DNA of 64,000 nucleotides from Moniliella sp. 'wahieum' (lineage: Eukaryota), in the NCBI GenBank assembly GCA_003971905.1, contig RSEE01000085.1:186001-250000 (forward strand), written 5' to 3'. This document shows positions 40,480 through 64,000 of the stretch, piece by piece. Position numbers and translations under genes: made by a program. Under the pieces are notes generated by a model. The model was not told the DNA's origin. It ran no database searches and was given only the letters and a program-made list of their open reading frames with translations. Position 1 is the first letter of the stretch. Each line of letters starts with the position of its first letter.

Positions 40480-43307
40480 ATGGAGGAGCCGGGAGGCTAA
40501 CCCGGCCTTCCCCCGCGTTACCATACTCCAAATTATGTTTGAAGCCATCCCCCACTCCCTTTTCCTCGCTATGAAAGAGGTCTTTCCGTTGTAGGTGGTT
40601 TACCTACCTTCGCCCCCATCCCTTGTGTTTTTTTGTTTCCGCCCTGCGCCCTCGTGGAGGGCGATTGTATCGATGACTCCTTCTCCCACACTGCGGATCT
40701 GGATAGGTAGTTGGACAGGGGGATGGGACTGGGCGGACTAAACAGGTGTCCGTTCCGCTCTATCCAAGCCTTGATAGTGTCACGCGAGTAGCTGAGCTGG
40801 GCCGTACGAGGGTGTGGCTGGGCCGAGGCCAAGGACGATGCCAAAGGCGCCATGATGAAGTGGGCACAGTCTTTGTAGGCCAATGTTAAAAGGTCGCCAT
40901 CTGCTCGGTGGTAGCCTTGATGGTAAGAGTTTCAAAAGAGGTGTCTATCAGTTGACTGATACGGACTTGCCGACCAAACTTGATTGTCACACCTTCCGCG
41001 GCCGGACTTGCATCGCCCCCACCACCTTCCAATCCAGAGGGCGGCCAGAGAATGTTCAGAGCTCAAATTAGAGAAGTGCTAATTTACTCTTTGACCCGTG
41101 TATAGGGAAAAGTCGGTCGGGAGCACTGGTACCCTTTTACCCTCCGTTGCCCGTCCAGAGTACCTATATACTGGCTACCTCGTCATGGGTAGAGACGCGA
41201 GCAGGTTGTCACACAGTTCATATATAGTTGTGCGCTTGCAGGTTCGTTAGGATTTTGAGTGGACGACCCCAACCTAACTTCTTCAATGGCATAGGGACTC
41301 CGGTGATTTAGTTCTGGGGTCACCTCTCCTTCTCTCCTCCATGGCTGCCGTTTTCTATTGTCCTGATGAAAGGATATGTTAAGCTAGCACAGCTTCCATA
41401 CGCGAGGTGTAGAAGAAAGGGAAATACCCGGTTTGCAAGTGTTGTAAGCTTTGGGACATTCAAAAAAGTACCACAAGCGCATCCAACCCGACGGTGTGGC
41501 CGTCGCTTGCCAGCATTCCAGCCGGCGTGAAAGGTGCCCCCAGTTGGGGGATGTGGCTCATGGCGAACGTGGGGTGTTTGAAGTGAAGCGAGGCACAGCC
41601 GATTTCACACACAAAAACGACGGTTAATACTGCTAACCGTGAGTGCGCCCTGTTCCACATTGCGGCACCGAAACCTGTTGGGGCCTTTGCCTTTCAAAGG
41701 GTCTTGACGGGTGTGAACCCACGGTACCAGAAATGGTGGGACCGGTGGTATGGTATACTCTATGAAGCCAAGTCGGTGCAGGATAATGGGAGCGCTCAAT
41801 GAACAAATCGGTCAAGAGTGTGGGTGTCCCGTACCGAGAAGTTTTTTCTCAAGTAATTTGGGATTCCTTGCTGCACCTCCGCCAAGGTACCAACACGAGG
41901 GGGGTGAGTATCATGCTGTATCATCTCTTCTGTTGGTGAGTTCGTCCTCGTTCAACGTTCACCGCCCGGCTGATGCATCTTTTGACCGAGAGAGAGCTGT
42001 GGTGAAGCTGTTTGGCGCGGGTATAGGTGTGATACCCGTCTCGACTCCTTCTGAGTGAGTTACATATTGGGCGGACAGAGCCAGCTACACCTAGTTTGTT
42101 ATCTCTTCTAGGGCAGCCTATCTCATGCGGGTGTTGTTGTGATGCTTCGAAGAAAAAACCTGTCCTTATGGATGTAGAGGGCCGTGTCCATCAGGGCAAA
42201 GATGTGCATATGCAGGCAGACGGTGGATGACCCTGACTGATTAGGACTAGATACACGAGGAGCACGCAGATGGGCAAAGGATCGGGTGGCAGGAGGAGAG
42301 GCCATGGAGACTTGGAAGGCTGGAGGGAAGCGAACACCGGAACAGCCAGGTAGCTGTTGCTCAGTATCAGGAAGACGCCAGTGCGGGAGAGGCATCTAGA
42401 TTGTGACGCGTGACGCGTGACGTGTGAGGTCGCATGCCACATGCCATGCGTGCCACACAGCGGAAAGGCCAGGCGCCAAAGGGTTCGGTACAACGGCTGG
42501 GGGTCCTCGATGGCGTGACCGCCATCACAAGCAGCACAGCGCCTGTGTGGTTTTCGCCGTGCCTGCGAAGGCGTTTTGATCGCTTTTGTTATCCCCTGGC
42601 CACCCCGTCGGGTTATAACCGGTAACCTCAGAGGGGCCATATCCAGGCGCATCTTCGCCGTGCTTGGTCGATGGCAGTGGCCAACCTGACCTGGCGATGC
42701 TGGAGCTGGGTGGACGCAATGGGTGGGATGGGCATGATAGAGAGATTGCGCGGGCTTCATGCGCAGACCGCTTGTGGATTGTCGATTGGGTTGGATTCGG
42801 GTGAGGCAGTGGACATGTGCACGCTGCTAAAATGTAAAGAGCAGTTCGTCAGTCTGGCGTAGCTAGTCACGAAGCCACTAGCCACTAGTCACTAGCCACT
42901 AGTCACGCCGTGTTCAAGCCCTCGCAGGCGCCAGGCCCCAGGACCTTCGCAGGCTTTCGCAGCATCGTTGAACCCGAGCAGGGCTTGTCTTTTCTCCGCG
43001 GCGCTAGTCCATTCATCTTTAGTCCGGGTGGCGGAATAATGGCATTACCAATAGTAAGACACGAAATTGTGTGCTTGGCTCTGCCACAGCGCCTTCTTCT
43101 TGTATCCTGTTTTTCGCCTCCCCACCACCACCTGCTCTTCTTTCCCAGCCCTCCCGTCTCGCCCCACAGCAGACCCCCTCAAGCCTCAGCTTCACTCTGT
43201 TGCTGGAGCAACTGCGCCCACTACCTTCTCCTTCCTCCCCAGCGCCGCTCATCTCGGTCGCCCGTGCCCCAGAACCAACGTGCCTTTGGCCCCGTCTCCG
43301 CACTTTG

Positions 43308-43378
43308 GTTAGTCTTCTGCCAGCAGCTGCCCCCAGGAACACGCTTGTGCTGACCATCTACTCCACTGATGAAACAGA
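43308..43378 (+). other. Probable 5'-UTR intron of the sulfite reductase gene
   Basis: GTTAGT donor, GCTGAC branch point and CAG acceptor 4 nt before the ATG at 43383. Confidence 0.55.
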
Positions 43379-43382
43379 TATC

Positions 43383-46300
43383 ATGTCGTCTCCCATTGCT
43401 CAGTTGGCCAGCGTGCTTTCTTCGGCCGTTGTCGTCGCTGGAACCGGCGTGGATGCCTCCCAATTCACCCACGTCCTTTTCGAGCATCTGCCTTTGCATG
43501 CCGAGATTGGTGCAGCTGCCCTGGCTGCCACCAAGTCCAACCCGCCTGGATCGAACCAGGTTGTTTCTGTTTTTGCGTCCGCGGACCGTGTTGCTCTGAT
43601 TCGCCTTGTCCCCTACCTCACCCAGCTCGCGTCTGTGCCCGTCGTCTTTCACATTGGCCTTCCCGCCGGTGCTGGGCACGCCGATGTGCTGGCGCTCCGT
43701 TCATCCGGTCTTGGACTCATCTACTCTTCCACATCACAGCAAGCATATGACCACACCCTTGTTGCTTCGGTTGCCGCTGCCGCCTCCCAGACCTCTGTCA
43801 TCCACTTCTACGAGACGACGGCACCCGAAACCCAGCTGGAAAAGGTGACTGATCATGACCTGCCCTCCCTTTTCACTGCTCCCGCTTCCTTGACTCGGGC
43901 CAATGGAACTTCCAACGGAAACGCGAATGGAAACGCGAATGGAAACGCGAACGGAAACGCGAATGGAAACGCGAATGGAAACGGTGCAGCTGCCATCTCT
44001 GCTCCCACAAAGGCCGCTGATATTGCCTCAGCCTTTCATTTTGCCTTTGCTCATGTTTCCGACCTGGTGGGTCACTCGGTCGAGCCATACACTTACAAGC
44101 CTGGCAACGAGCGCTTGGTAGTTTCCCTTGGTCCCAGCGTCGCTTCCTTTGCTGGAGACGCCAGCATCCTTGAGCTTCATCTCGTCCGCCCCAACCTTCT
44201 TGTGACGGAAGTGGAGGAAGCCCTGCAAAAGGCAAAATTGGTTGCCGTATTGGAGAAAACGGCGGGTCGGACCACTCGCGTCGGTCCTGTCTTTACTGAT
44301 GTTGTTACCGCCCTGCATAATGTACACGGAACCAAAGCCAAGCTTCCCCCTGTGCTAGCTGGCACAGTAGGCGAACTGGATGGCTCGTCCGCTGCCGACC
44401 TAGCTTCAGCTCTGGATAAGCAGCCCAAAACGTTCTCCCTTGGCGCCCAGACTAAGGACATCAAAACCGTTGCTCCTTCCGTCGTGCCTGCGCCCACCAA
44501 ACATGAGCAGGCATATCAGCTCATTCTGGAGCAGATTTTTGGCCCGCGCCTCAGCGTTATCAACTCGCCGTCCAACGAGAGTGACCCGCACCCTTCTGCT
44601 CGGTCGCCCGAGTACGCCTTTGGTCAAGTCCTGGCCCAGCTTGAGAAGCGCGATGCCGCCATTACTGCTGCCCAAGCGGCGCTTCGTTCTCAACCCCTTC
44701 CCAGCAATGTCCAAGAGCTGGCGACTAAGTTGGTGCAGGGCGATGCCGCTGTAGCAGCGGCAGCCGCCCTGGAACTGGCCTCCTCTTTGGGCCAAGAGTC
44801 TGCCCTGTCTCCTGAGCTCAACGCTCTGCTGGCCACGCTGCCCAATGTGGACGACAAGTCGCGCTGGATTGTAGGGAGCGATGCGTGGGCATACGATGCT
44901 GGCATGGGTGGCGTGCACAACGTCATCGCGTCCGGTAAGAAGGTCAACATGCTCATCTTTGACACACTTCCGTACACTGAGCGTGATGCTGTCGTGCCGG
45001 AGAAGCGGAAAAAGGACATTGGTCTTTACGCTATGAACTACGGCGGTGTGTATGTGGCTTCAACAGCGGTCTACTCGGACTATACTCAAGTTCTTCACGC
45101 CATCCGCGAAGCGGACGCCTTCGATGGCCCCTCTATCGTCTTGGCCTACGTTCCCTTCCGCACACAGGAAGCGGCCGCCCTAGAGGTGCTCAAGGAGACC
45201 AAGCTTGCCGTCGACAGCGGCTACTGGCCCCTCTTCCGTTGGGACCCTAGCGCTGAGGCCCAAAGCCGGGAGGTATTTCACCTAGACAGTGCTCGGCTGC
45301 GCGAGCAGCTCAAGCAGTTCCTCGACCGTACCAACCAGCTGTCTTACCTCGCCAACGCACAGCCGGCGCTCGCCTACGATTTGGTTGCCTCCCAAGGCGC
45401 CGGACTGCGTGCCGCCCAAAAGCGCAAGGCCAAACAGGCCTATGATGACCTGCTTTCGTCCCTCGATGGACCTCCCCTCCTCATTCTCTTTGCCTCGGAT
45501 TCTGGCACGGCCGAGAAAGTGGCTAAGAAACTGGGCCAGCGCGCCCAGGCTCGAGGGGTGGCGACACGTGTGCTGGCAATGGACGACTTCCCTACCTCGG
45601 ATGAGCTGGCCCAAGAGGAGAATGTTTCTTTGTCACCTCCACCGCTGGACAAGGCGAGTTCCCCCAGAACGGGCGAGACACATGGAAGACACTTGCCAAG
45701 CTTACTCCCGGGTCCCTGAGTACGGTCAAGGCGGGCGTGTTTGGGTTGGGTGACAGTCATTACTGGCCTCGCCCAGAGGATGCAGGGTACTACAACAAGC
45801 CTTCCAAGGATTTGGCTGCCCGTCTGGCCTCTCTGGGTGCCGAGCCTTTGGTTGAGTTGGGATTGGGTGACGACCAAGACGCAGATGGATGGCAGACGGG
45901 CTACAAGGCATGGGAACCACTCGTATGGAAGGCTCTGGGCGTGGACCACATCCAGGTAACGGAGCCAGAACCTGAACCAATTACCAACGAGAACATCAAG
46001 ATTGCCTCCAACTACCTCCGTGGTACGATTGTCGAGGGTCTAGCGGACAAATCGACGGGCGCGATTGCCGAGAGCGACACACAACTGACCAAGTTCCACG
46101 GAACCTATATGCAGTACGACCGGGACACGGTCGAGGAGCGCAAGGCTGCTGGGCTTGAGCCTGCGTACAGCTTCATGATCCGGTGCCGCATCCCGGGTGG
46201 AGTTGCCACACCCGCTCAATGGCTCGCTTTGGACCAGATTGCCGATGACTACGGTAACCGTACTCTAAAGATCACAACGCGGCAGACGATCCAGTATCAC

Positions 46301-47741
46301 TATGTAGTCAAGAGCAACCTCAAGAGCGCCATGCAGGCCATCAACAAGACTTTGCTCGACACAATTGCCGCATGTGGTGATGTGAACCGCAACGTTATGG
46401 CGTCGCCCCTGCCTCAGCTTTCCGAGCTGCACGAGGACGTGTTTGACTTCAGTAAACGTCTGTCTGACCATCTCTTGCCCCGGCTGAACGCCTACCACGA
46501 GATTTGGCTTGACCAGGGTACCGACAGCAAGAACCAGCTTTTGGTCGGTGGGGCGTTGCAGGACTACGAACCTCTCTACGGGCCCTACTATTTGCCGCGC
46601 AAGTTCAAGATTGCGATCGCGGTGCCGCCACGGAATGATGTTGACTGTTTTGCCCACGACGTGGGGCTCATCGCGATTGCCGACCCGGCGACAAAGCGTC
46701 TGCTTGGCTTTAACCTCTCTGTTGGAGGGGATGGGGGTAACTCACTCGATGAAGATCACCTATCCCCGGACTGGGACGGTTATTGGCTTTGTTACACCCG
46801 AGCAGACCCTGGATGCGGTTCGCACGGTGATGCTCACCAGCGGGACACCGGCGACCGTGCGAATCGCAAGCAAGCGCGGCTCAAGTACACCATTGACAAG
46901 CACTTTGGTGGAGCGGACAAGTTCCGGGACGAGATTGAGAAGCGGTTGGGTGGAAGCTGGCGCCTGCGCGCCCGTACAAGTTTGAGTGCAACACGGACCA
47001 GTACGGATGGATCAAGGACCATCGGGGCCAATGGCACTGTGGTCTGTGGCTCGAGAATGGGCGGGTCAAGGATACACCCGAGTCCCCCTTCCGCACAGGG
47101 CTGCGCGAGCTGGCCAAGTGGCACAAGGGTACGTTCCGCATGACCCCAACCAGCACATCATTGTCTCGGACGTGGCTGAGGAGGATAAGCCCAAGGTGGA
47201 GGAACACCTGCGCAAGTACAAGATGGACAATTGGAACTTGTCGGGCATCCAGCGCAGTGCCTCCGCTTGCGTTGCTTTCCCTACTTGCGGCCTGGCTATG
47301 GCCGAGTCGGAGCGGGTACCTCCCCATCCTCGTCGAGAAGGTCGAGCAGCTGTTTGTTGCTGCTGGGTTGAGGGACGACGAGGTGGTGATGCGGATGAGC
47401 GGGTGTGCCAACGGGTGCTCCCGTCCCTGGTTGGCCGAGATTGGGTTTGTGGGGAAGGCACCTGGATCGTACCTGATGCTTCTGGGGGGTGGGCATGCAG
47501 GCCAACGTCTGTCCAAGATTTTCCGCGATGGCGTGGGCGAGGAGCAGATCCTCAAGGAGCTTGAGCCGCTGGTCAAGCGCTATGCTGCTGAGCGTCTCGA
47601 GGGGGAGCCTTTGGAGATTGGGTCATCCGCTCTGGTGTCATTGCACCCACCACGTCGGGCGCCGAATTCTACGACAACGTCAACACAGAAGGCTACTCCC
47701 CTGTGCCCCCGCCCAAGGTCATTCCTGGCACATTTGCTTAA
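43383..47741 (+). CDS. MET5: Sulfite reductase (NADPH) beta/haemoprotein subunit (PFOR-like, flavodoxin and siroheme domains), frameshifted in the 3' half
   Basis: WIVGSDAWAYD, RKKDIGLYAMNYG, KETKLAVDSGYWPL, flavodoxin ILFASDSGTAEKVAKKL and FGLGDSHYWPR, QLTKFHGTYMQ, TIAACGDVNRNV, YLPRKFKIAIAVPP, ACVAFPTCGLAMAESER, RMSGCANGCSRPW. Confidence 0.95.
43902..43985 (+). repeat. Coding 12-bp tandem repeat (AAYGGAAACGCG)n encoding (NGNA)n
   Basis: Direct reading: NGTSNGNANGNANGNANGNANGNANGNG. Confidence 0.95.
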
Positions 47742-48225
47742 CCTGTTGCCCTCGGTCTTGCTTGTCTCCCTCGCGTTTCTTTTTGTGACTTCCTGTGATT
47801 CGAAAGATATGTTAAGTTCGTTTTGCCCTGCCAATACTCTAGGGAGTTCGTCTGATTCAGTCGTCAAGGGGGTATATAATGAGAAGAAGAGCATTCAGAA
47901 CATGTATACTACAGCAGGCAATGGGAGCCAACGGTAGTTCAGCGTCGCGATGGCAGCCCAGAATAAAAATGGACAACTAAAAGGTGGCCCAATGGTAGAG
48001 GTCAAGTAATAGAAGACCAACAACAATCGAAAGTAACGCGAGAATGTCTTGTGAGTGGGGCTCTCCTATGTGGCAGGCCCAACACTTGTATAATGGGCAA
48101 CAATAAGTAGAGCAGTGGCGTCGATGGCGGGGGGCGGAAATGTCGTGATCACGACATTTCCGCCCACCCCACCATAAAGCGCTTGCATATCCGGCTGCTG
48201 CGCAACACTCTACGCTTTCATCGAC

Positions 48226-51342: not shown

Positions 51343-51894
51343 ATGCTCTCTGCACTCCGCCAGGTTGCCCGCCGCGTCCCGGTCGAGGCGCGCGCCTTCC
51401 ACTCCTCGCCCGCGCCCCACAACACGCCAGCCTACATCGCCAAGGCCAAGGCTGCCGGTCTCAGTGTGGTGGCCAAGACAGAGGGTGCGTGTGGTCTTGT
51501 CTTCTGGCGGTTCCTGCCCGCTTACTAACATGTATGATCGTCCAGCTGTTGCTCAGCCAGCATGGTACTACGCCAAGGTGGCTGGTGAGGTGGCCAAGCA
51601 GGTGTACCAAGGCCAGGCTCTGGCGCCCCCAACCAATCTTGCTCAGATCAAGGCGGCGTACCAGACCTTCTACGCCAACGCTTCCAACATTGGCTGGTGG
51701 AACTCGATTGCCGCCAATGGCCAGTGGAAGACGGTGGCACTGTATGGTCTTGAGGCCTACGGATTCTTCAAAGTGGGCGAGATTGTAAGTTGCCGCATCC
51801 TCTTCCTTTTGCTCTGAGAGAAACTGACATTGGGTTTCTTGTTCAGATTGGCCGGAGGAACCTGGTTGGCTACAAGGTCGACAAGCACCACTAA
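51343..51894 (+). CDS. ATP20: Mitochondrial ATP synthase subunit g, 142 aa; introns 51485-51545 and 51785-51846
   Basis: Presequence MLSALRQVARR; YYAKVAGEVAKQVY..LAPP; EAYGFFKVGEIIGRRNLVGY (GxxxG); splicing is in frame. Confidence 0.93.
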
Positions 51895-52430: not shown

Positions 52431-55425
52431 TTAGAAAAAGGACCACTTGGACTTGGGTTGCGGTCGCAACGGAGCCGTCTTGCCCTGATAAAGCTTCAAG
52501 AGCGTGTCGAGTTTGGTCTGAACCAGCTCCAGCTTCTCTTGCGTCCTTGCAGATCCAGGTGGTCTCGCACTACTGGGTTCTCCCGTGCAAACGCCTCCAC
52601 TTCCCCACGGTTCAACTCTTGGACCAGGCGCGTGTCCAACTCGCGCGGGAACTGGTAGAAAAACTCCGCGAGCAGTTCGATGTTGATAAACATGACCGAT
52701 GTGTACGTCAGCTTGTCCGCTACTACGTTGAGGAACGTCTCGGGGCAGTATGCATCACTCTGTACTCCGGGTCCAGCCTTGCATCGCTTGGAGCCCAACG
52801 CCTTCAACCTCCTCTTCAAGATGTCGGCCCGGGCATCGAGGAAAATGGCCTCGCGGGCCTTACCGCAAGGCGGCATTGTAGTCGGGACGAAGAGGGTCAT
52901 TGGCTTCCAAGTCCTCTTCCACCGTGGGGGGAGCATCCGGGTGGGCCGAGCGTTCTTTGATAGCCCTCCAGCGAGCGGCGGCACGCTGCCGCTGCCGCTC
53001 ATCCAGATCCTTCACATGGCTCACCGCCGCATTCAAACGGGACTTTCCGATGGTGGAGCGGAGTTGCTTGGCTGCTTCCGTGCACATGTCCAGTTCCCGC
53101 TGCAGTAGTGTCGTCGCATCATTGCGCCCCGTGCTCCAGTCCCGCTCTTCAATCTCCACCTCGTACTTGAGCGGCTTGATCGCATTCTCCACCTGGTCCG
53201 CCGTTAGGGTAAAACGCTCACGCAGAATGCCTGCCGCCAATGCCTCAACCCGCTCGGAAGTGGATTTGTGGTGCGCAAACGGTTCCGAAGCGAGCAGACG
53301 CTCCAGCTCCGTGCGGATCGCATTGACAACAATCTGTGTGCTGAGCCGGCCAATGCCTGCCTTGGTCAGGGCCGAGGTGGATGCGTCAAGCTTGTACTTC
53401 CAGTACCGATCCAGTGCTGCGTCTATCTTCTCCATGTCTTCAGCTGTTTTGGGTGCAGGGAGCATTTTGGCCTCCCCCGCAGCGCAAAGCTCGGCGGTGC
53501 GGGCGTCAGACCAGTACATCTGAGCCAAAATGTCCAGCACCTTTTCGTCCAAGGCGTGCTTCAGCAGTGCCCGAGCTTGGGGCTTGCCCAATTGATCGGC
53601 AAGCAGTTGAAGACGGTGCTTGAGCGCATCAATCGTCTCTGCTGCATACGCCTCGGCGGAGATGGAGCGATCATTGTACTGCACCTTAAACGCGTATGCC
53701 GCCTCCTCCAGTTCCATCTGCACCGCCGTCGACACATCTTGCAAACTCGAACCCATGCTCTCCTCGAGCACAGTCATCAACCTCCGCCGAAGGGCATCCG
53801 TACCCAGCAAAGGTTCTACCCCAGCGTGGCGACCCTTGAGCGGGGGCTCGAACGCCACTGCGTTCTGGGCGAAGTAGTCATCCTCCTGTTTCTCAACCGA
53901 GTCAGTTAAGGACGACAAACCCGACCGCCTATGGCTCCGGCCCAGTCGACTCTTGATCAGGGACACCGGATTCTTGGCGACCACGCCCACATACCCCAAA
54001 GCGAGAGGGTAGCGGTTTCCATATAGGATCGAGGCTCCCACTTCGGGTGGGACAAGGTCCATCTTGGTGATCACACCAATTGTGCGGAGGCCTAGCGGGT
54101 CGACCTTGCGGCTGGCTCGCAGGGCAGGAGAGTTGGCCAAGTCCACATCCGCCGCACAAACAGCGAGGATCACATTATTGGTTGAGGGAGCAATGTACTG
54201 CTCACACAGCTTCTCGATCTTCTCCCGTAACTCATCAGGCTGGTCCATCCCAGCCACCTGGACGTAGCCTGGCAGATCAATCATGCTCAGATCGGGCACA
54301 TGGGGCGAGTGAATGTGAAGTTCGATGGGCACGTCGGATACAGCTTGTTCCTTGGGTACAGCCAAATTCATATCCCGTAGCGTCTCTTGGATCTGGCGGA
54401 AATCGCGGATCGGACCTAGGCCCGTGCCAGGGAACTCGCCATACTCCACCACGTCCCCCTTCTTCCCAGTTGCCTTCGTGTGAATCAGGGTCAATTCGAT
54501 GGGCCGGCGGGTAACCATGTTAGAGCCCTTGGGCAAAAACTCATGACCAACAATCGCCTCCAGTACCGAACTCTTTCCGCTGCTCTGGGAGCCAATTACA
54601 ACGATCGAGGGAAGTGCGATCTCCTCGCCAGTATGATCAATGGTCTTGAGAATATTGCGCACCTCAATTAGCTGGCGAGTGAGGTGCATCAAACTGGCCG
54701 CGCTGTCTTGCGAGTCATACGCTTCCTCCTCCTCATCGGCTGCCTGCTCGTCCGAGCCAGACTTGGCAAAGAGGGAGGCAGGCAGCCGCGGGACCCTTAC
54801 CCCCGGGCCCTGAGGACGAAGTAGAAGAACCAGAAGAAGACGCATCCGATCCAGGTTCATCTCCGCTCCCCAGGCCAGCAAAAAAGTCGCGAGCTCGCTC
54901 ACGCATCGAGGTGGCACGATCAATCCACTCGTCGCGTTTCTCCTGGGCCGCGGTAAAGTCGAGACTGTTGACCCAAGTGTCAAATTGAGCGTGAGCCTCT
55001 GAGGTCCATGCACCAGCTGTTCCAATTGCCTCAACGGCCAGGCCCTCGGCCATGAGATAGTACTCATTCAGCCTGGCACGCGCATCGTCGAGCTTACCAC
55101 TGGCATAGGTCAAAATGCCGGCCCCTGTAATGCCGAGCGCAGCTGGAAGGCGGATGAGGCGAAATGCGATACGTGGCACAAATCGGAAGCTGATCGCACG
55201 CACGCTCATGTACCGTAAGGCGGGGGAAGTCGGGGGGAAAGGGGTACCCAAGGCGCGTGGGCGTACGGACAGGAGCGGCGCACGAGTCGGCTGCCCCAAG
55301 AGAGCCGCAGAGGTGAGCGATGAGGTGGGAGGTGAGCGCAAGGCACCCAGGCCGACGCGAGCACCATTGCGAGCAGCGGGATGGAGGCCCACGCGGGCCG
55401 CCAAACGCATTCCCTCAGCACGCAT
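52431..55425 (-). CDS. MGM1: Mitochondrial dynamin-like GTPase Mgm1/Msp1, frameshifted
   Basis: Presequence then hydrophobic segment; [109 protein letters not shown]. Confidence 0.96.
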
Positions 55426-56717: not shown

Positions 56718-57678
56718 TTAGTCCTTCTTGAGTTCCCTACGAATTACCAGCGTCGCACCGGGAAGCTGTTCATCCTCGCCCCCCTGCGCTTCAACCGCAT
56801 TGAACGGAGCCGCGAGGAGGTTGAGCGCATTTGCAGTGGCGGCACCGACACCGAAGCATCCTCGGCTGTCATCGGTGCATCCTCATCCTTCGTCTCTGCC
56901 GTGGTCTCCGCCTTGGGGTTGCGCACCACAAAGATCTCCAGGCCATCACCAACTTCAATGTGTCGCTCGGTAGCCGAGGTGAAGGAGTCGGTGGCGATGC
57001 TGATCGCATGTTGGAGAGAAATGTGACCTGGGATGGGCAACAGCCGTCCTGGGGTGGCAGTTTGGTTCTTGTACATTACCTGCGAGTCGAGGAACGGTTG
57101 AGTAGACTTTGAGCCGCGCCTGCCGCTCGGCACACTTCCCGTTCGTACGAGCCGACGGGTCAAAGGAATAGACCGCCCCCTTCCCCTCCTCATCCAGGCC
57201 ACCCAGTACATTCCATACATAGTAAGGGAAGAAGCGCTTTCCATATAGGATTGTGCACAGCATCCGTGCAATGCCCGCCAAGGGCATCGATGTGCCATGC
57301 GCATAGCGGTACAGTTCCAAGCGAGCCCGGACCAGTTGCACCAGCGCCTCAGCGTCGGCGGCAAACCCGTTCGTCGCCAACGTCGCACGGTCGTTTCTGG
57401 TGGTGCGGTCGTATGAGTATGACATGTGACAAGACAGAAGCACAGAATATTCATAGAGGGGAGGGAGATACGTACAGACGAAAGACGCGAGGCTTGTAGC
57501 GGGTTTGGATGTTGTAGCCTTCAGACTGACGAGTGTCGCCGGCCAAGACACAAAAGTCTTGTCCTGCCACAGCGAGGATGGAGCCGCCGTTGGAGGTGTA
57601 GGGGTTGAAGCCACGCTGGTTGGGTCCAGCCGCAGTCAAGCCGCCTGGGGCCGAGGCAGGAGCAAGCACAGTTTGCAT
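56718..57678 (-). CDS. PRE7: 20S proteasome beta-6 subunit; intron 57397-57475
   Basis: FNPYTSNGGSILAVAGQDFCVLAGDTRQSEGYNIQTRY, ILYGKRFFPYYV, GKGAVYSFDP, DSFTSATERHIEVGDGLEIF, C-terminal ELKKD. Confidence 0.96.
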
Positions 57679-58045
57679 GGGTTGCGGTTACGAGGTGGCG
57701 ATAGAGATGCAGATGGGGTGATGGGGGCGGGCGAGGGTTGGTCGTGAGCTGGCGTGTGCACCGCCGGGGCCCAGCCAGTGGAACGCGTATGCTCAGGCGG
57801 GCGGAATTTGGGGAGGAGGGGGATCGATGATCGGCAATCGGTGATCAATATTCATTTGAGGATGGATGAAATTGCATCTGCGCAACCACCACCTCCGCCT
57901 TGAATTTGGTGTTTGAAGCACCAAAGGGCTACGAGAAGACGACAACGGCAACCGCGACGCTCGTTCAGCTGCCGCAGCCGATCCACTACCCCCTTTTCGC
58001 ACCTGGCCTCCCTGCTCTGCGCGCAGTTCGAGCGGTGACTGTACC

Positions 58046-58589
58046 ATGCCCTCCATTCGCACCAGCCGGACCAAGGCTCCCCAGAGGGGTTTGAGGAGAT
58101 TGCCGACATTCTGGACGAGTACGAGCGCAAGATGCGAGAGGCGGAGGCCGCGTCGCATGAAGGCAAGCGCCGTACCGAGTCGGTCTGGCCCATTCTGCAG
58201 CTGGCGCACATGCGCACCCGCTATCATTTACGACCTCTACTACAAGCGCGAAGCGATTTCGCGAGAGCTGTACGACTGGCTGATCAAGGAGCGCTATGCG
58301 GATGCCAAGTACGTATTGAGTATTGACTTGAGGCTGGCTGCGCAGGGGGGAAGTACATACTGACCAGAGGTTGCTTGCTGCACTGTTCGATGGCTGCTCT
58401 TCCAGTCTGATGGCCAAGTGGAAGCGGCAAGGATACGAAAAGTTGTGCTGTGTGCGGTGCATTCAGGCGCGCGACAACAACTACGACGGCGCTACGTGCA
58501 TCTGCCGTGTGCCAAAGGCGGTGCTGCGGCCAGGGACGGTGGTGGAATGCCAAAACTGTGGGTGCCGGGGCTGTGCGTCGCAAGACTGA
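58046..58589 (+). CDS. BUD31: Splicing factor Bud31/G10/Cwf14; intron 58309-58405
   Basis: [77 protein letters not shown]. Confidence 0.96.
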
Positions 58590-59451
58590 GTTGAGGAATA
58601 CGATGGATGGATGGCCGATGGTGGTGGGCATGAGGTTCAAGCTAGCTGGCTGAGCTGAAGGGGAACGTGCATGAAGAGGAAACAGGAAGTGCAAAAGGTA
58701 GCACAAAAGGCTGAGCCGGGGGCAGCACGATGGCCAATGGCCGGACGCCAGGCACTACGCCGTGTATAGAAGGGGGTGGCGGGCGTGAGTGCTGAAGGAG
58801 GAGCTCGACGTGGTTCGGAGGCGAGCGCTGAAAAGGGGAGGCTCAGAGACTGACAGTCGATGAAAAGCGCCCCGGGTGAATAGCAACAGGGAGGAATGCA
58901 TAATGCTAGTTGGCAGTGGCGATGGTGAGCGCCGTGTGCACGCCTGAGGGCCGAGGGGTCTGCTGTGGGTGCGGCTGTGACATGTGGCGGTGGCTGGGGG
59001 TGAGCGCTGGCGCGCTGAACGCGGCCGCGCCCCGACAAAATCACATGGCAATCCCATCCCATCCACCGCAGCCGCGGCGTGCAAGCGCTGGGCGTGCAGT
59101 TCCCTCGAACGCTGACGCGCTCAGGCCAGGGCGGCGCGAGCGCACTGAGGGCTGAGCTGAGCTGAGCTGAGGCCACGCGCGGCGTGCTGGAAAATATTTC
59201 CGCCGTCGGCGCTTGCGTTTGCTCCGCCCGTCGACCCATCCGGCATCCCGACCCTGACTGGGCGCTGGCCAGCCAGGCCCGTGGCTGGCCACGCGGCCGC
59301 TGCGGCTGCGGGCACCGCATCCAACGCACGCGCACGCGCAAGCGCTCCCCGCCGCCCCGCTCCCGTGCCACCGCTCCCGTGCCCCCGCTCCCGTGCCCCC
59401 GCCGCCACCGCCACCGCCACCCCGCCACCACCTCCAGCCACCATCCCCACC

Positions 59452-61225
59452 ATGCCCGCCTTTGCGTCCGACTCGGAGCGCACCGAGTCTCCGGCTGCCT
59501 CGCCCGAGCCTGATCCCCATGGCACCCGCACCCGCACCCGCACCGCCAGCCGTACTCGCAGTCGCAGCCGCAGCCACAGTCGCACTCCCAGCCGCAGCCG
59601 CAGCCGCAGTGCCAGCGCCAGCGCCAGCGCCAGTCTTGCCGATACCCCCGCTGCCTCCCCCTCGGCCGCCAGCAAACCCGCCCCGGCCCCCGTACCCCGG
59701 CGGAAGCTCAAGTCGGCAGCGGAAAAGTCGATGGAGATCAACGATCGCGACATCCGTACCCTCTTGCGCGGCGTGCACAAGTGGGGCGACCCAGCGTACC
59801 GCTATGACCAGCTGGTCGAAGAGGCGCGTCTGCAAGGCAAGAATAAGGCCGTCGTCATGCGTACACACGGCCGATCTTCTTGCCATCTGCACTGCCGCTG
59901 TCCAAGCCCACGACCGCCAGCTTCGTGCCATGCTGGCACGCGGTGAGGATGTGTCGAAAGTGCGCCAGAAGGCGGTGCTGGTCAAGTTTCACGGGGTCGA
60001 CAAGATCAATGCGGAAACAACGGTCATTCGGCACAACGATCTCGTCTGTTGGGCGAGACGTTGGATCGACTGAGCGAATCAGGCCAGAATGCGTGGCGCG
60101 TGCCGGCCAAGTCGCCAAGACAACCATGAACTGGTCCGTTCCCTGGACCGCCGAAGATGACGCCCACCTGCTTGTTGGGTGTTACCGCTACGGCCTAGGT
60201 TCGTGGGAGCAAGTCGAAGCTGATCCAGGCCTCAAGCTGGCGGGCAAATTCTTCCTATTGGAAGAGAAGGAAAAAAACAAGAAGGTCGAAGAGGCCAAGA
60301 AAGGAAAGCACAAGCCCAAGGCCAGCCCAACCCCAGCGGCTGTGACCGCCGATGACGGTAGCAAAATCAAGCCCATCCCCAGCTCGGTCCACCTTGTACG
60401 GAGGGCAGATTATTTGCTGAAGGTTCTGCGGGAACACGACGATCATCTCAAGGCCATGGTTGCTGATCCGGTGGATCTTTCGATGGGCGAAGGCTTCCCC
60501 GCTCGTGCCTCCGTCGGGCCGGGGGGCGTGTCGCTTGATTACTCTGATTCAGAGGAGGAAGAGGAGACGATGACGATGATATGGACGAGCCCAGTGCAAG
60601 GAACTACTGCGTCCGTGTCGCAAGCACCTCAAACGTCTGCGAACCGGTCTGGATCCCATGGATCGTGAGCAGACAGTACCTATCCTCAAACTCGCCCTCG
60701 CTGCAATTGGACAACAGATCGAGCGATCGGTCAATGCTCAAGGCCAGAATCAGTCGCGCGCTCAACGCCAGAAGCTCGACCGTCATCTCTGGACGTTTGC
60801 ATCCTACTTTTGGCCTTCGGAGGTACGTCTTCTATCCCTATTCCGTTCATTTTGGATTCACGCTGACATTATCCCAGGTCCAGCCCAGCAAGTTGCGCGA
60901 CCTTTTCAACAAGCTTGTCCAAAACGATTCGCCTGTCCTGGAGGAGAGCGTGTCCGATACTCCTTCCCGCTGGAAAGAAGAGCGTCCGGCCAAGCGCAAG
61001 CACAGCTCCCTGGGTCCTGATTTGGCCAAGAAGCGACGGACAAACGATATGCTGTCACCCCCTCGGCGTATGACTATGACCGTCTTCCCAAGGCTCGGGT
61101 TACCGCTCCGAGTCCAGAGGGCACGACGCGCTCTCGCCGCGACTCGAAGCGAGACAGCCGCGGCGCGATCATCGGGATTACGGGGACCATCGTTCGCGCT
61201 CCCCACGCCTGGTTGGGGCTCCTAG
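59452..61225 (+). CDS. Chd1-like protein comprising only SANT-SLIDE DNA-binding and CHCT/DUF4208 domains plus an RS-rich N-terminus; intron 60823-60877; frameshifted
   Basis: DRDIRTLLRGVHKWGD; NWSVPWTAEDDAHLLVGCYRYGLGSWEQVEADPGLKLAGKFFL; IPSSVHLVRRADYLL; RPCRKHLKRL..LAAIGQQIE..LWTFASYFWP. ATG in CACCATG context; stop is approximate. Confidence 0.85.
59521..59635 (+). repeat. Compound coding hexamer repeats (CGCACC/CGCAGC/GCCAGC) encoding TR, RS and SA dipeptide runs
   Basis: GTRTRTRTASRTRSRSRSHSRTPSRSRSRSASASASAS read directly. Confidence 0.9.
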
Positions 61226-61397
61226 TTCTATATATCCTTGTCTTTGGCGAGATACCTACCACCTGTACCAGTTCGGAATCCTTCGTTACATCTCACTCGC
61301 GTTTGCACTCGGAGCTCTAGTGCCCCCAGCAACCCGAATTGTTTAGCCAAAGACAATATTGCCATAGTTTCGTCCGCTCGTCTTGCCTACAAGCGGG

Positions 61398-63800
61398 TTA
61401 CAGTTCCTCATCTTCATCAACAGCGACAGGTGCCTCGGCTTGCTTTCCTCCTCCTCCTCATCCTCATCGCTGCCCCCCTCGACGTTCAAGAGAGCAAACG
61501 CGTTCTTCGGCTGGGCCGAGGAGCAGCGACCTCCTCATCGTCCGTATCAATGGCCTCAGGCGAGGTAGGTTTGGGCCCAGCGCCCGGGGCAAAACTTGGA
61601 TTGTCCTGAGCCTGCGGCGTACCTCGGGGTCCTCCTCCTCGGCAAGGCCCATACCCATCTCGATCAATTCGCCCAGACCATCCGCGTTAGCCCGACGTTC
61701 ACGGCGAGCGAGTTTGCGGGCCTTTTTGCGCCTTGCCCTTGGACTGCAACTGGATCCCCTCGAGTTCTTGCTCGGAAAAGATGGTAGCCAATTGAGAGCG
61801 CTTGCCGAGGTCGGTATGCTTGCGCTCTTGCGCTGCCTTGCGTTGCTTCTCCAACCAGGAGGGAGGTTCTGCGTCGCCTCCACAGGTTCTTCAGATCCTC
61901 CGCCGCGGGGACGGGGACCATCACATCATCTTCCTCCGGCGGGGGCGGGGGTCGGAGACGACGTGGCACCAAATCCTCATCATCTGAGTCCGTGTCGAAA
62001 CCAGTGGGTTGAAGGTATGAAGGAACCATCTCTTCCTCCTCATCGGAATCGTCTAGGTCCCTCCGCCTTTTCCCAAGCGAAGTGTGGCGGGTTCGGAAAC
62101 CAGAGCAGGGGCCGGGACGGGGGGCAGAGGACAATAGCTTCGTCTTCGTCATTCCTCGATCGTCTCAACTACGGCGGCACGATCCAATCCTGTTGGGTAG
62201 CAAAACCTGCGTTCGCGGGCTTGGAGCGCTGCGCCGCCTTGGGCTACACTTCCCGGCCCGTGTTGCCCTCGTCGGCGGCTTGAGCACCTTGCAGCGCCTC
62301 GTCCGGATTGTCCAGCCCGGCAAAGAGCGCATCTAGATCAAACTCCTTATCCAATGTGGTCTTGATTTCGCTTGTGGCGTTAATTGCAGCCCGAGCGGCT
62401 TCAGCGTCGGTCTGCTGCGAAACCGAAGACGTAGGTGCCTTGGTGGTCGCATTGGGGTCAACGAGGGCGGGAACGATGAACGAGCGGAGGTGCAGTGCAG
62501 TACTTGATTTTGCCCACATTCCAATCATGCAGAACCGAGCGGGCTGAACCCTCGAGATCCGGTGCGCCGGTAGCAGATTGTAGCCGTCCTCGGCGCAGGG
62601 CGAGGCGGAGGAGGAAGCGTTGTGCCATAAGTAGGGTAGGGGAGGGAATCGGTTGTGTCACATCCACTTCGTCTCCTTCTTGACCAAGGGAAGAGGAAGG
62701 CGGGAGGTCGTACACTTCTTCCAATTGGGAAATGGGGACACGGGAAAGGATGGCTCGGACGGGAGTGATAGGGTCTTCCAGTAATTCGACCTTAACCACG
62801 TTTCGGAGGGCAGCAGCCATCGTGTCAAACTCAGTCATCCCCTTCCCGGCCGAGGGAGGCTCATGAAATGACACGCCGGGGCAATCGATCAGCCGGATCT
62901 TTTTGTCGAGCGCGACAGATTGGAGCACCTTGGTGTGACCCGGGGTAGAGGCCACACCACATACCCGGGCCCGCTTGAGCGAATTGATCAGGGAAGACTT
63001 GCCCACATTGGGCGCTCCAAAGATCCCGACCGTCAAGGATGTCTTGACTGAAAAGTTACGCGAATAGTTCTTCATTAGCTGCAACAGCGCGGTGGCTCCC
63101 AAAGCCTCGTTGCCTGTGTGCAATGCGCCGGCCCCCGCGGAGGGCACCTTCCCAGCCCCCTGGGCTAGATGAGAGCGCTGCTGCTGCGTCGAGGCCTTGA
63201 ATGCCAAGGTGGTAAAGTCATGGCGTAAAAATTTGAGCCACCGCTCCACGTTTTCTCGCGGCACCAAATCAACCTTGTTGAGAATGAGAATCACCCTTTT
63301 TCCCTGTCCCAAGGCCAGGGTCTCGGTGGTCAAGGACCTACAGGCCATCGGGTCCCGCGCATCCAACACCTCCAATAACACATCCGAAGATGCAATCAGT
63401 TCCTTCAACTGACCCGAGTAGGCACGCAGAGAACTGTCCTTGCCCCCCGTCAATGCTCGGTCCGCCGAAAGGGAGGCATACGTCTCCCCCTCTGCGTCGG
63501 GGCGGAGGGTAAATTGAAAGTCGGATTGGGGCACTTGGGCAACAGTAGCCGTTTCCGACGCAAGGGACCCACCTTCACCAGCTTCGTCCATCTCTACCTC
63601 GCCTCCCCGGACCTCGTCCCGCTCTCGTGCGGCGGCGGCGGCGGCAGCGTACTTGCGATGCTTAAAAAGGCAGGCAGGCCTTCCTTTCCTCCACCGCCAT
63701 TGGGGCCGGAAGTAGGAAGCGCGCCTTTCCTTTGGGCACCGTTGCGCTTGTCCTGTCTCCCTTGCTGCTTGCGGCGGCTGGCAGCGGTACGTTGCCCCAT
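61398..63800 (-). CDS. NUG1: Circularly permuted nucleolar GTPase, Nug1/GNL3/Grn1 family, frameshifted
   Basis: SDVLLEVLDARDP, G4 LNKVDLVP, WLKFLRHDFTTLAFKAS, G1 GAPNVGKSSLINSL, G2 TPGHT, G3 DCPG, DWNVGKIKYCTAPP. Confidence 0.88.
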
Positions 63801-64000
63801 GGTTGCGGTCGTCGACGATGGAGGCGCTTGAGTTGATGGGGCGTAGAACCCAGAAAAATTTTGGTGGCGCCGCAATGGAGGAATTGCATATCAAAAAGAA
63901 ATAAAAAATTAAATCACTGGCAGGTTGCACCGACGTCATCAATCAACCAAGTCACCTCGATAATTGCCCAGGGCCATTGTGGCCATTGTGCGTAGTCGGT

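What the first reader, a model, noticed from the sequence alone, without database searches (positions are those of the whole stretch)
59452..61225. Stand-alone Chd1 DNA-binding plus CHCT gene with no chromodomains or Snf2 ATPase
Seen: SANT-like, SLIDE and CHCT-like motifs in Chd1 order. Only ~860 bp of promoter-like DNA separates the BUD31 stop from a CACCATG start, and I see no ATPase motifs there. Established: Chd1 remodelers are chromo-chromo-ATPase-DBD-CHCT in one polypeptide. Inference: a truncated paralogue acting as a decoy or competitor for linker DNA, an independent chromatin adaptor, or one half of a split Chd1.
Basis: partly seen in the sequence, partly recalled or inferred. Interest (0 to 1): 0.78.

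Follow-up and report, generated by a model that had tools for sequence, protein, structure and literature searches.

The report
CHD1 tail end in error-ridden assembly
The stretch really encodes only the DNA-binding and C-terminal domains of the chromatin remodeler CHD1, but it lies in a draft fungal assembly full of one-base errors and its homology stops inside a simple repeat, so a true stand-alone gene is not shown.

Summary
The domains are real. Window 59,692-60,940 (+) encodes a CHD1 DNA-binding domain (HL1-SANT, then SLIDE/HTH) and a CHCT domain, in CHD1 order. It is collinear with residues 905-1304 of the nearest full-length fungal CHD1. No chromodomain or Snf2 ATPase is detectable anywhere in the 64 kb.

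It is not an intact gene as deposited. From the ATG at 59,452 the frame changes at least five times, apart from one 55-nt intron. The first stop comes after 164 codons.

These breaks look like sequencing errors, not decay. MGM1, BUD31 and a proteasome subunit carry the same kind of break. No piece has an in-frame stop, and 25 of 26 invariant CHD1 columns are kept.

The fragment has diverged from other Ustilaginomycotina about as much as MGM1 has (ratios 0.87 and 0.88). That suits an orthologue's tail, not an old paralogue. All close relatives found are full-length CHD1.

CHD1 homology ends inside about 0.5 kb of tandem simple repeats. No genome, reads or close relatives' DNA were available.

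Odds: assembly misjoin about 40%, young non-functional truncation about 25%, functional stand-alone about 22%, split gene about 8%. Interest is low to moderate.

The parts
58046..58589 (+). BUD31 gene, the upstream neighbour. It has one intron and two one-base frame breaks, at about 58,078 and about 58,222.
   Evidence: Pfam BUD31 PF01125, E=7.6e-10, in ORF 57,917-58,360. The frame breaks were read from the three-frame translations. The expected BUD31 residues are recalled from the family, not taken from a tool alignment.
58590..59451 (.). 863-bp spacer with no CHD1 similarity. Its 3' part (59,151-59,457) is tandem simple repeats: GCTGA x4, a 14-mer x3.4, CCGCCA x6 and CCACCATCC x2.2. The last of these holds the ATG.
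   Evidence: Tandem Repeats Finder and the repeat finder. No Pfam family in the ORFs here. No CHD1 hit by tblastn. The junction DNA is not repeated elsewhere in the window.
59452..59691 (+). Putative N-terminal 80 codons, rich in Ser, Arg, Thr and Ala and of low complexity. Hexamer repeats at 59,522-59,633 vary mostly at third codon positions of frame 1. The 3' part may correspond to the non-conserved CHD1 linker before the DBD. The conserved KAEEEERQRAV helix of full-length CHD1 is missing.
   Evidence: Translation. Tandem repeats. Weak collinear low-complexity matches to Malassezia-like CHD1 linkers, E=0.001 in a search space of 17 sequences. The remark on codon positions is my reading of the sequence.
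59692..60114 (+). First half of the CHD1 DNA-binding domain (helical linker 1 and the SANT-like part). It is read in frames 1, 2, 1, with breaks at about 59,865 and about 60,045.
   Evidence: tblastn and alignment to P0001 residues 905-1043 and P0002 1160-1270. Pfam Cdh1_DBD_1 is only E=0.075 on the first piece. The short pieces are not significant against the PDB.
60117..60440 (+). SLIDE/HTH part of the DBD (frame 3), entered through a break at about 60,113.
   Evidence: Pfam PF23588, E=3.2e-21. PDB 2xb0_X and 3ted_A, E=3.2e-17.
60441..60585 (+). Short acidic linker (DYSDSEEEEE / DDDDDMDE) with two breaks, at about 60,565 and about 60,590. It is about 40 residues shorter than in relatives.
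   Evidence: Three-frame view and alignment.
60586..60940 (+). CHCT domain (CHD1-like_C), interrupted by a 55-nt GT..AG intron at 60,823-60,877 that moves frame 1 to frame 2.
   Evidence: Pfam PF13907, E=1.3e-18. PDB 5o9g_W residues 1377-1448, E=9.4e-9. Alignment. Intron borders read.
60941..61346 (+). Non-conserved basic tail. There is a probable break in a C5 run at about 61,058 and perhaps another at about 61,165. The stop is at 61,225, 61,320 or 61,346 depending on frame.
   Evidence: Three-frame view. Only weak low-complexity matches to the tails of relatives.
61400..63810 (-). Convergent downstream neighbour, a circularly permuted MMR_HSR1-type GTPase. Its N-terminal 494-codon ORF is intact. 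Its acidic C-terminal extension (61,400-62,470) changes frame at least five times.
   Evidence: Pfam MMR_HSR1, E=2.7e-16. The frame changes were read by eye, without a homologue to support them.

Best explanation
The stretch is the 3' third of this lineage's ordinary CHD1 gene. It covers a linker, the SANT-SLIDE DNA-binding domain, the CHCT domain and a basic tail. The organism is a deep-branching Ustilaginomycotina-like fungus.

The frame breaks are one-base consensus errors of a draft assembly, not mutations.

The missing chromodomains and Snf2 motor are most likely an artefact. The join between the BUD31 flank and the CHD1 linker lies in about 0.5 kb of tandem simple repeats, in the most error-dense block measured in the window. 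In the organism the module would then sit at the end of a full-length remodeler and work as in Chd1. The SANT-SLIDE domain binds linker DNA and directs sliding. CHCT binds the N-terminus of Rtf1 and double-stranded DNA, which places the enzyme on transcribed genes.

Shown: domain identity, collinearity, indel-only damage, orthologue-grade conservation, and a breakpoint in simple repeats.

Inferred: that the breakpoint is an assembly misjoin and not a real rearrangement.
For: 1. Domain identity and order are as given in the observation check.

2. The damage is indel-only.
- None of the six reading pieces has an in-frame stop.
- Homology runs straight through every break.
- Most of the breaks I placed look like a base missing from a short C or G run (my reading).

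3. Other genes are damaged in the same way.
- MGM1 changes frame 3 times in 3.0 kb against relatives that are 88-91% identical.
- A Flavodoxin_1 domain of sulfite reductase is split over two overlapping ORFs.
- BUD31 and a proteasome beta subunit have 2 breaks each (by reading).

4. Break density is uneven.
- It is about 3.5-4 per kb of coding sequence between 57.1 and 62.5 kb.
- It is about 0.5 per kb in MGM1, sulfite reductase and the GTPase N-terminal ORF.
- The dense block is roughly centred on the junction.

5. There is no extra divergence.
- Over 327 conserved columns the window's identities to Sporisorium, Malassezia yamatoensis and Rhodotorula are 50, 42 and 41%. Tilletiaria's identities to the same three are 57, 50 and 46%, a mean ratio of 0.87.
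- For MGM1 the figures are 63, 59, 57 against 75, 66, 63, a mean ratio of 0.88.
- The window keeps 25 of 26 invariant columns, the 26th being a gap or X at a break, and 78 of 98 columns conserved at 80% or more.

6. All close relatives are full-length. 18 of the 19 hits are 1316-1848 aa with chromodomain and Snf2 families.

7. The ATG lies in a tandem repeat, and a non-triplet 14-mer repeat lies just upstream. An in-frame ATG in this GC-rich open frame is expected by chance. That last point is my estimate, not a computation.
Against: - No read, genome or synteny evidence for a misjoin could be obtained.
- The junction DNA is not repeated elsewhere in the window. Half a kilobase of simple repeat is short for a long-read misassembly.
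- If the assembly comes from long reads, as the error type suggests, its large-scale structure would usually be right.
- The break leaves the whole DBD-CHCT module intact behind a plausible start codon in frame. That fits a selected stand-alone product better than a random join.
- The window's end branch is 1.5 times that of its sister P0001 (0.49 against 0.33).
- It keeps 75-79% of the conserved columns, against 84-92% for non-redundant full-length relatives. This could reflect mildly relaxed constraint. Mistranslated residues beside the breaks and this lineage's generally long branch may also account for it.
Confidence: 0.4

Rival explanations
1. Real but young truncation without function. 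A strain- or species-level deletion, rearrangement or partial duplication left the 3' third of CHD1 behind BUD31. It is a loss-of-function allele or a fresh relic. Its good conservation only reflects the parent gene's history.
For: - The locus reads as a contiguous sequence with no N.
- The breakpoint lies in tandem simple repeats, which are prone to recombination.
- There is no counterpart architecture in relatives.
- The end branch is somewhat longer than that of the sister.
- CHD1 is dispensable in budding and fission yeast. This is recalled, not checked here.
Against: - There are no in-frame stops, and 25 of 26 invariant columns are kept. Any decay must therefore be very recent.
- The frame breaks cannot be counted as mutations, because essential neighbours carry them too.
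- Nothing shows the locus is unexpressed.
Confidence: 0.25
2. Real, functional stand-alone DBD-CHCT protein. It would be translated from the ATG at 59,452. It would bind linker DNA through SANT-SLIDE and Rtf1/Paf1C through CHCT without moving nucleosomes. It would compete with, or stand in for, a full-length Chd1.
For: - The module is complete and begins just before the DBD, after a disordered linker.
- It is in frame with the first ATG of the open frame.
- Conserved residues are kept.
- The hexamer repeat at 59,522-59,633 varies mostly at synonymous positions of frame 1 (my reading).
- A laboratory fragment with the same content, yeast Chd1(863-1468), binds Rtf1 in two-hybrid tests. CHCT alone suffices, and it binds dsDNA and nucleosomes in vitro (passages of PMC12390759).
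Against: - No such architecture turned up among named Ustilaginomycotina.
- The database proteins of 300-800 aa that hold a DBD and CHCT (17 of 22 scanned) cannot be told apart from cut gene calls. One of them, P0068, starts with the end of Helicase_C.
- The two Logan relatives with 90% identical MGM1 gave no counterpart.
- The ORF is broken as deposited.
- There is no expression evidence.
- The ATG context is part of a repeat.
Confidence: 0.22
3. Split CHD1. The chromodomain-ATPase half is encoded elsewhere, and the two halves work together in trans.
For: Constraint on the DBD-CHCT half looks as strong as in full-length orthologues. That is expected if it still serves the remodeler.
Against: - No split form was seen among the 19 relatives.
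- No partner can be sought without the genome.
- I know of no natural split Chd1. This is from recall; I made no literature search on this point.
Confidence: 0.08

Closest known systems
Full-length fungal CHD1/Hrp3 remodelers of Ustilaginomycotina. Examples are the Tilletiaria anomala protein K437DRAFT_274892 (P0002, 1758 aa) and the unnamed Logan protein P0001 (1316 aa).
   Same: The window is collinear with their last roughly 400-450 residues: linker, HL1-SANT, SLIDE/HTH, acidic linker and CHCT. Identity over 327 conserved columns is 55-60%. It is sister to P0001 in the tree with 100/99 support.
   Different: Residues 1 to about 900 (N-terminal motif, double chromodomain, Snf2 ATPase, the KAEEEERQRAV helix) have no counterpart anywhere in the window. 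The SLIDE-CHCT linker is about 40 residues shorter.
Saccharomyces cerevisiae Chd1: DBD crystal structures 2xb0 and 3ted, and full-length chains such as 5o9g.
   Same: By sequence, the SLIDE part matches 2xb0_X residues 163-261 (E=3.2e-17). The CHCT part matches 5o9g_W residues 1377-1448 (E=9.4e-9).
   Different: Only sequence was compared; no fold was predicted here. The first DBD pieces are too short, because of the frame breaks, to match significantly on their own.
The laboratory fragment yeast Chd1(863-1468), that is DBD plus disordered region plus CHCT, used in Rtf1 interaction tests (PMC12390759; abstract and passages read).
   Same: It has the same domain content as the window's reading frame. 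This shows what such a product could bind: Rtf1 residues 1-30 through CHCT, and DNA.
   Different: It is an engineered construct, not a natural gene. Nothing shows that the window's version is made in the cell.

Membership tests
CHD1 subfamily remodeler (full enzyme) | Tandem chromodomains N-terminal to the motor | tested here: not met
   There is no Chromo family in 228 of the 235 ORFs of 110 aa or more. tblastn found no match to residues 1-900 of CHD1 proteins. This holds for the window only; the genome was not available.
CHD1 subfamily remodeler (full enzyme) | Snf2-type ATPase (SNF2_N and Helicase_C) | tested here: not met
   Same searches. Nothing was found in the 863-bp spacer or elsewhere in the 64 kb.
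CHD1 subfamily remodeler (full enzyme) | SANT-SLIDE DNA-binding domain after the motor | tested here: met
   PF23588, E=3.2e-21. 2xb0_X, E=3.2e-17. The window is collinear with the DBD of P0001 and P0002, including the HL1-SANT part.
CHD1 subfamily remodeler (full enzyme) | C-terminal CHCT domain (PF13907) | tested here: met
   PF13907, E=1.3e-18. 5o9g_W residues 1377-1448, E=9.4e-9.
   There are at least 5 frame changes besides the intron, and a stop after 164 codons in the ATG frame. The changes are probably sequencing errors, so the real state is open.
   No RNA or DNA run was listed.
   None was found (metagenome scans). Short DBD-CHCT proteins in the databases look like cut gene calls. 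The nearest relatives, with 90% identical MGM1, are known only from short Logan contigs.
Decaying pseudogene | In-frame stops, loss of invariant residues and faster divergence than functional genes | tested here: not met
   There are no in-frame stops in the six pieces. 25 of 26 invariant columns are kept. The divergence ratio is 0.87 against 0.88 for MGM1. The only hint is an end branch of 0.49 against 0.33 for the sister.

The most novel reading that the evidence does not exclude
A deep-branching smut-like yeast lineage naturally makes a motor-less Chd1 derivative, either as a free SANT-SLIDE plus CHCT protein or as the DNA-binding half of a split Chd1. This protein would occupy linker DNA and the Rtf1/Paf1C docking site without ATP-driven sliding. 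It would be a natural counterpart of the Chd1(863-1468) laboratory fragment.
Probability: 0.27. Interest if true: 0.6.

Novelty: new member of a known kind. Interest (0 to 1): 0.27.

Why it matters
If the truncation is real and expressed, it would be a natural experiment. It would separate Chd1's targeting functions (linker-DNA sensing and Rtf1 docking) from its motor. That bears on how remodelers are recruited to transcribed genes.

As things stand, the main value is a caution. In an assembly with one-base indels every few hundred bases to two kilobases, an odd domain architecture that begins in a simple repeat should not be read as biology until reads or PCR confirm the join.

Tried and rejected
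1. Whole genome: none is held for this window. The search for a full-length CHD1 or an ATPase-only half could not be run.

2. Sequencing runs: none was listed for 57,900-62,500 and no RNA holder was listed. No reads could therefore be laid on the junction.

3. Metagenome contigs: scans with the SLIDE piece and with MGM1, which was meant to fetch synteny from close relatives, both found no relative.

4. Protein search for fragments of 143-457 aa holding the conserved DBD start: nothing.

5. Earlier findings of this scan, by genome, by sequence and by relatives: nothing.

6. Lead that the ORF keeps the CHD1 N-terminal tip, that is an in-frame internal deletion at the native locus.
- Low-complexity BLAST suggested a PDxxGxR likeness to the conserved DPDLYGLRRSGRA motif.
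- A profile built from 13 homologues, run over all 1,720 six-frame ORFs of 20 aa or more, did not list the ORF among its 15 best hits. The best score anywhere was 3.4 bits.
- The lead was rejected.

7. GC3 periodicity as a frame tracker gave too weak a signal to count frame breaks.

8. Junction DNA as a dispersed repeat: only three hits of 45 nt or less elsewhere in the window. There are no tRNA genes in 55-64 kb.

9. The PDB search with the two 57-aa pieces of the first DBD half was not significant. 4b4c_A, the human CHD1 DBD, scored E=0.24, and the other hits were unrelated.

10. The tail after 60,940 gave only low-complexity matches, so the stop could not be fixed.

11. The representative search with the CHCT piece gave 69 hits, with best identity 48%. 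Many are short proteins, and Pfam on 22 of them could not separate true stand-alone genes from cut calls.
Full report
WHAT THE WINDOW IS

The window is GC-rich fungal DNA: 58% G+C and no N. A 735-codon ORF at 52,863-55,067 (-) is the dynamin-like GTPase MGM1. Its best matches are two unnamed Logan proteins at 90% identity. All named relatives, a broad set of Ustilaginomycotina, lie at about 64% or below. The organism therefore belongs to a deep or fast-evolving smut-like lineage with no annotated close relative. No whole genome is held for the window.

THE OBSERVATION

Pfam scans of the reading pieces gave three results.
- HTH_CHD1_Hrp3 (PF23588, E=3.2e-21) in 60,108-60,665.
- CHD1-like_C, the CHCT domain (PF13907, E=1.3e-18), in 60,580-61,017.
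- Only sub-threshold matches to Cdh1_DBD_1 and SANT_HL1 (E about 0.08) in 59,452-59,943.

The word-indexed protein search with the SLIDE piece (327-2000 aa) returned 19 proteins.
- 18 are CHD1 proteins of 1316-1848 aa with chromodomain, SNF2 and helicase families.
- The other, P0014 (523 aa), lies on a 2,096-nt contig.

tblastn of five of these proteins against the window matched only 59,635-61,066. There was one further weak hit of the low-complexity tail of P0002 at 51,371-51,520 (E=0.009). A permissive rerun at E<=10 with word size 2 gave nothing for the chromodomain or ATPase parts beyond short chance-level matches. Pfam on 228 of the 235 stop-to-stop ORFs of 110 aa or more found no Chromo, SNF2_N or Helicase_C. 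The 7 ORFs left out were CHD1-region frames; 5 of them were already covered.

THE GENE IS NOT INTACT AS DEPOSITED

Alignment to P0001 and P0002 shows that homology continues straight through a series of frame changes.
- Frame 1 runs to about 59,865.
- Frame 2 runs to about 60,045.
- Frame 1 runs to about 60,113.
- Frame 3 runs to about 60,565.
- Frame 2 runs to about 60,590.
- Frame 1 runs to 60,822.
- A 55-nt GT..AG intron lies at 60,823-60,877.
- Frame 2 follows.
- A probable change lies in a C5 run at about 61,058, and perhaps one more at about 61,165.

From the ATG at 59,452 the frame stops at 59,944-59,946. The tail itself is not conserved.

ARE THE BREAKS MUTATIONS OR ERRORS?

Four lines point to errors.
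- The six pieces contain no in-frame stop.
- Joined with X at the breaks, they give a single collinear BLASTP alignment to residues 905-1304 of P0001. They keep 25 of 26 columns invariant among 18 homologues, the 26th being a gap or X at a break.
- Most of the breaks I placed look like one base missing from a short C or G run (my reading).
- Other genes are hit in the same way.

The other damaged genes are these.
- MGM1, against relatives 88-91% identical, changes frame three times in 3.0 kb with no gap in homology.
- A Flavodoxin_1 domain of sulfite reductase is split between overlapping ORFs 43,023-45,716 and 45,605-47,140.
- BUD31 has two breaks. A proteasome beta subunit has two within 57,080-57,170. 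For these two genes I read the frames by eye and recalled the family consensus.

Decay of a pseudogene would bring substitutions and stops along with indels. Indel-only damage shared with essential genes is what a poorly polished assembly gives.

Break density is uneven.
- Between about 57.1 and 62.5 kb it is about 3.5-4 per kb of coding sequence. The counts are proteasome 2, BUD31 2, CHD1-like 5-7, and the GTPase C-terminal extension at least 5 by eye.
- In MGM1, sulfite reductase and the intact 494-codon GTPase ORF it is about 0.5 per kb.
- The 898-codon ORF at 43,023-45,716 has none.
- The dense block is roughly centred on the CHD1 junction. I did not measure the first 32 kb.

WHERE THE HOMOLOGY ENDS

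Clear CHD1 similarity starts at about 59,692 (PRRKLKSAAEKSMEINDRDIRTLLRG, which matches P0001 residue 905 onward). Upstream, 59,151-59,633 is almost wholly tandem simple sequence.
- It holds GCTGA x4, a 14-mer x3.4 and CCGCCA x6.
- CCACCATCC x2.2 contains the ATG.
- Hexamers at 59,522-59,633 read SRSRS/SASAS in frame 1.

A 14-nt period does not suit coding sequence. The hexamers vary mainly at third positions of frame 1 (my reading). Coding therefore probably begins between about 59,400 and 59,520.

The SASAS stretch is weakly collinear with the linker of Malassezia-like CHD1 (E=0.001 in a tiny search space). The conserved KAEEEERQRAV helix that precedes that linker in all full-length relatives is absent.

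I tested one further idea, that the first 25 codons keep the CHD1 N-terminal motif. That would mean an internal deletion at the native locus. A profile of 13 homologues run over 1,720 six-frame ORFs did not pick the region, so I dropped the idea.

The junction DNA is not repeated elsewhere in the window. There is no tRNA gene nearby.

IS IT A DIVERGENT PARALOGUE?

Identities over 327 conserved columns are as follows.

| CHD1 C-terminal region | Sporisorium | Malassezia yamatoensis | Rhodotorula |
|---|---|---|---|
| Window | 50 | 42 | 41 |
| Tilletiaria | 57 | 50 | 46 |

The window is 55% identical to Tilletiaria itself. The mean ratio, window over Tilletiaria, is 0.87.

For MGM1 of the same species, over 593 columns:

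| MGM1 | Sporisorium | Malassezia yamatoensis | Rhodotorula |
|---|---|---|---|
| Window | 63 | 59 | 57 |
| Tilletiaria | 75 | 66 | 63 |

The mean ratio is 0.88.

The fragment has diverged as much as expected from the lineage's general divergence. In a maximum-likelihood tree it is sister to P0001 (support 100/99), and the pair groups with Tilletiaria. Its end branch is 0.49 against 0.33 for P0001. It keeps 75-79% of conserved columns, against 84-92% for non-redundant full-length relatives. Mistranslated residues beside the breaks could account for part of this mild excess.

This picture suits the tail of the lineage's own CHD1, a still-constrained half, or a very recent copy. It does not suit an old, fast-evolving paralogue or an old pseudogene.

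DO STAND-ALONE FORMS EXIST ELSEWHERE?

- The representative search with the CHCT piece gave 69 hits (best identity 48%), many of them short.
- Of 22 that I scanned, 21 carry CHCT and 17 also carry DBD families without a motor.
- These come from ORF-type calls on short contigs. One begins with the last residues of Helicase_C. They cannot count as stand-alone genes.
- No protein of 143-457 aa matched the conserved DBD start.
- Two metagenome scans found nothing.
- No sequencing run was listed.

MECHANISM

Passages of PMC12390759 state four things.
- Yeast Chd1(863-1468), which is the DBD, a disordered region and CHCT, interacts with Rtf1.
- CHCT (residues 1353-1468) is sufficient and binds Rtf1 residues 1-30 directly.
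- Isolated human CHCT binds dsDNA and nucleosomes in vitro.
- Loss of the contact shifts Chd1 toward the 5' ends of genes.

In a full-length enzyme, the module in this window would sense linker DNA and dock the remodeler on the elongation complex. Made alone, it would occupy those sites without remodeling.

WEIGHING THE EXPLANATIONS

For an artefact:
- The assembly is demonstrably inaccurate.
- The junction lies in simple repeats, inside the most error-dense block measured.
- Conservation is orthologue-grade.
- Every close relative is full-length.

For a real truncation:
- The sequence is contiguous.
- The repeat is short for a long-read misjoin.
- The break spares the whole module behind an in-frame first ATG.

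My odds are these.
- Assembly misjoin or collapse: 0.40.
- Young non-functional truncation: 0.25.
- Functional stand-alone protein: 0.22.
- Split gene: 0.08.
- Something else: the remainder.

Read mapping, a whole-assembly tblastn with the motor half, or one PCR across 58,500-59,800 would settle it.

VERDICT

The interpretation cannot be decided here. By my best reading this is an ordinary CHD1 tail from a poorly sampled lineage, seen through a poor assembly. Interest is low to moderate, and would rise to about 0.6 if the join is confirmed.

Noticed in passing
window 52,434-55,425 (-): MGM1, a mitochondrial dynamin-like GTPase, changes frame three times (at about 54,785-54,860, about 52,865 and about 52,540) with homology running straight through. 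The comparison is with two unnamed relatives 88-91% identical. This is direct evidence that the assembly carries one-base indel errors.
   Followed up: yes
window 43,023-47,934 (+): A sulfite reductase-like gene (POR_N, Flavodoxin_1, NIR_SIR_ferr, NIR_SIR) is spread over three overlapping ORFs. The Flavodoxin_1 domain is split at about 45,605-45,716 between two frames.
   Followed up: partly
window 56,750-57,690 (-): A proteasome beta subunit has an intron and, by my reading, two frame breaks within about 80 nt (YSFDP / VGSYEREVCRAAGAAQSLL / QPFLDSQV, at about 57,080-57,170).
   Followed up: partly
window 61,400-63,810 (-): A circularly permuted MMR_HSR1 GTPase has an N-terminal 494-codon ORF that is intact. 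Its acidic C-terminal extension (61,400-62,470) switches frame at least five times. The change in error density falls inside one gene, which argues for sequence quality, not biology, as the cause.
   Followed up: partly
window 1-26,600: Only 2 of the 117 ORFs of 110 aa or more in the first 26.6 kb match any Pfam family at E<=1e-4: PX at 6,308-7,000 and SH3 at 7,309-8,244, both on the minus strand. The longest ORF is 437 codons. Either genes there are badly fragmented by indels and introns, or the region is rich in lineage-specific or disordered proteins.
   Followed up: no
window 59,355-59,402: A 14-nt tandem repeat (CCCCGCTCCCGTGC, 3.4 copies, 94% matches) lies just upstream of the putative start codon, followed by CCGCCA x6. 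This is an unusually repeat-rich promoter or 5' region.
   Followed up: partly
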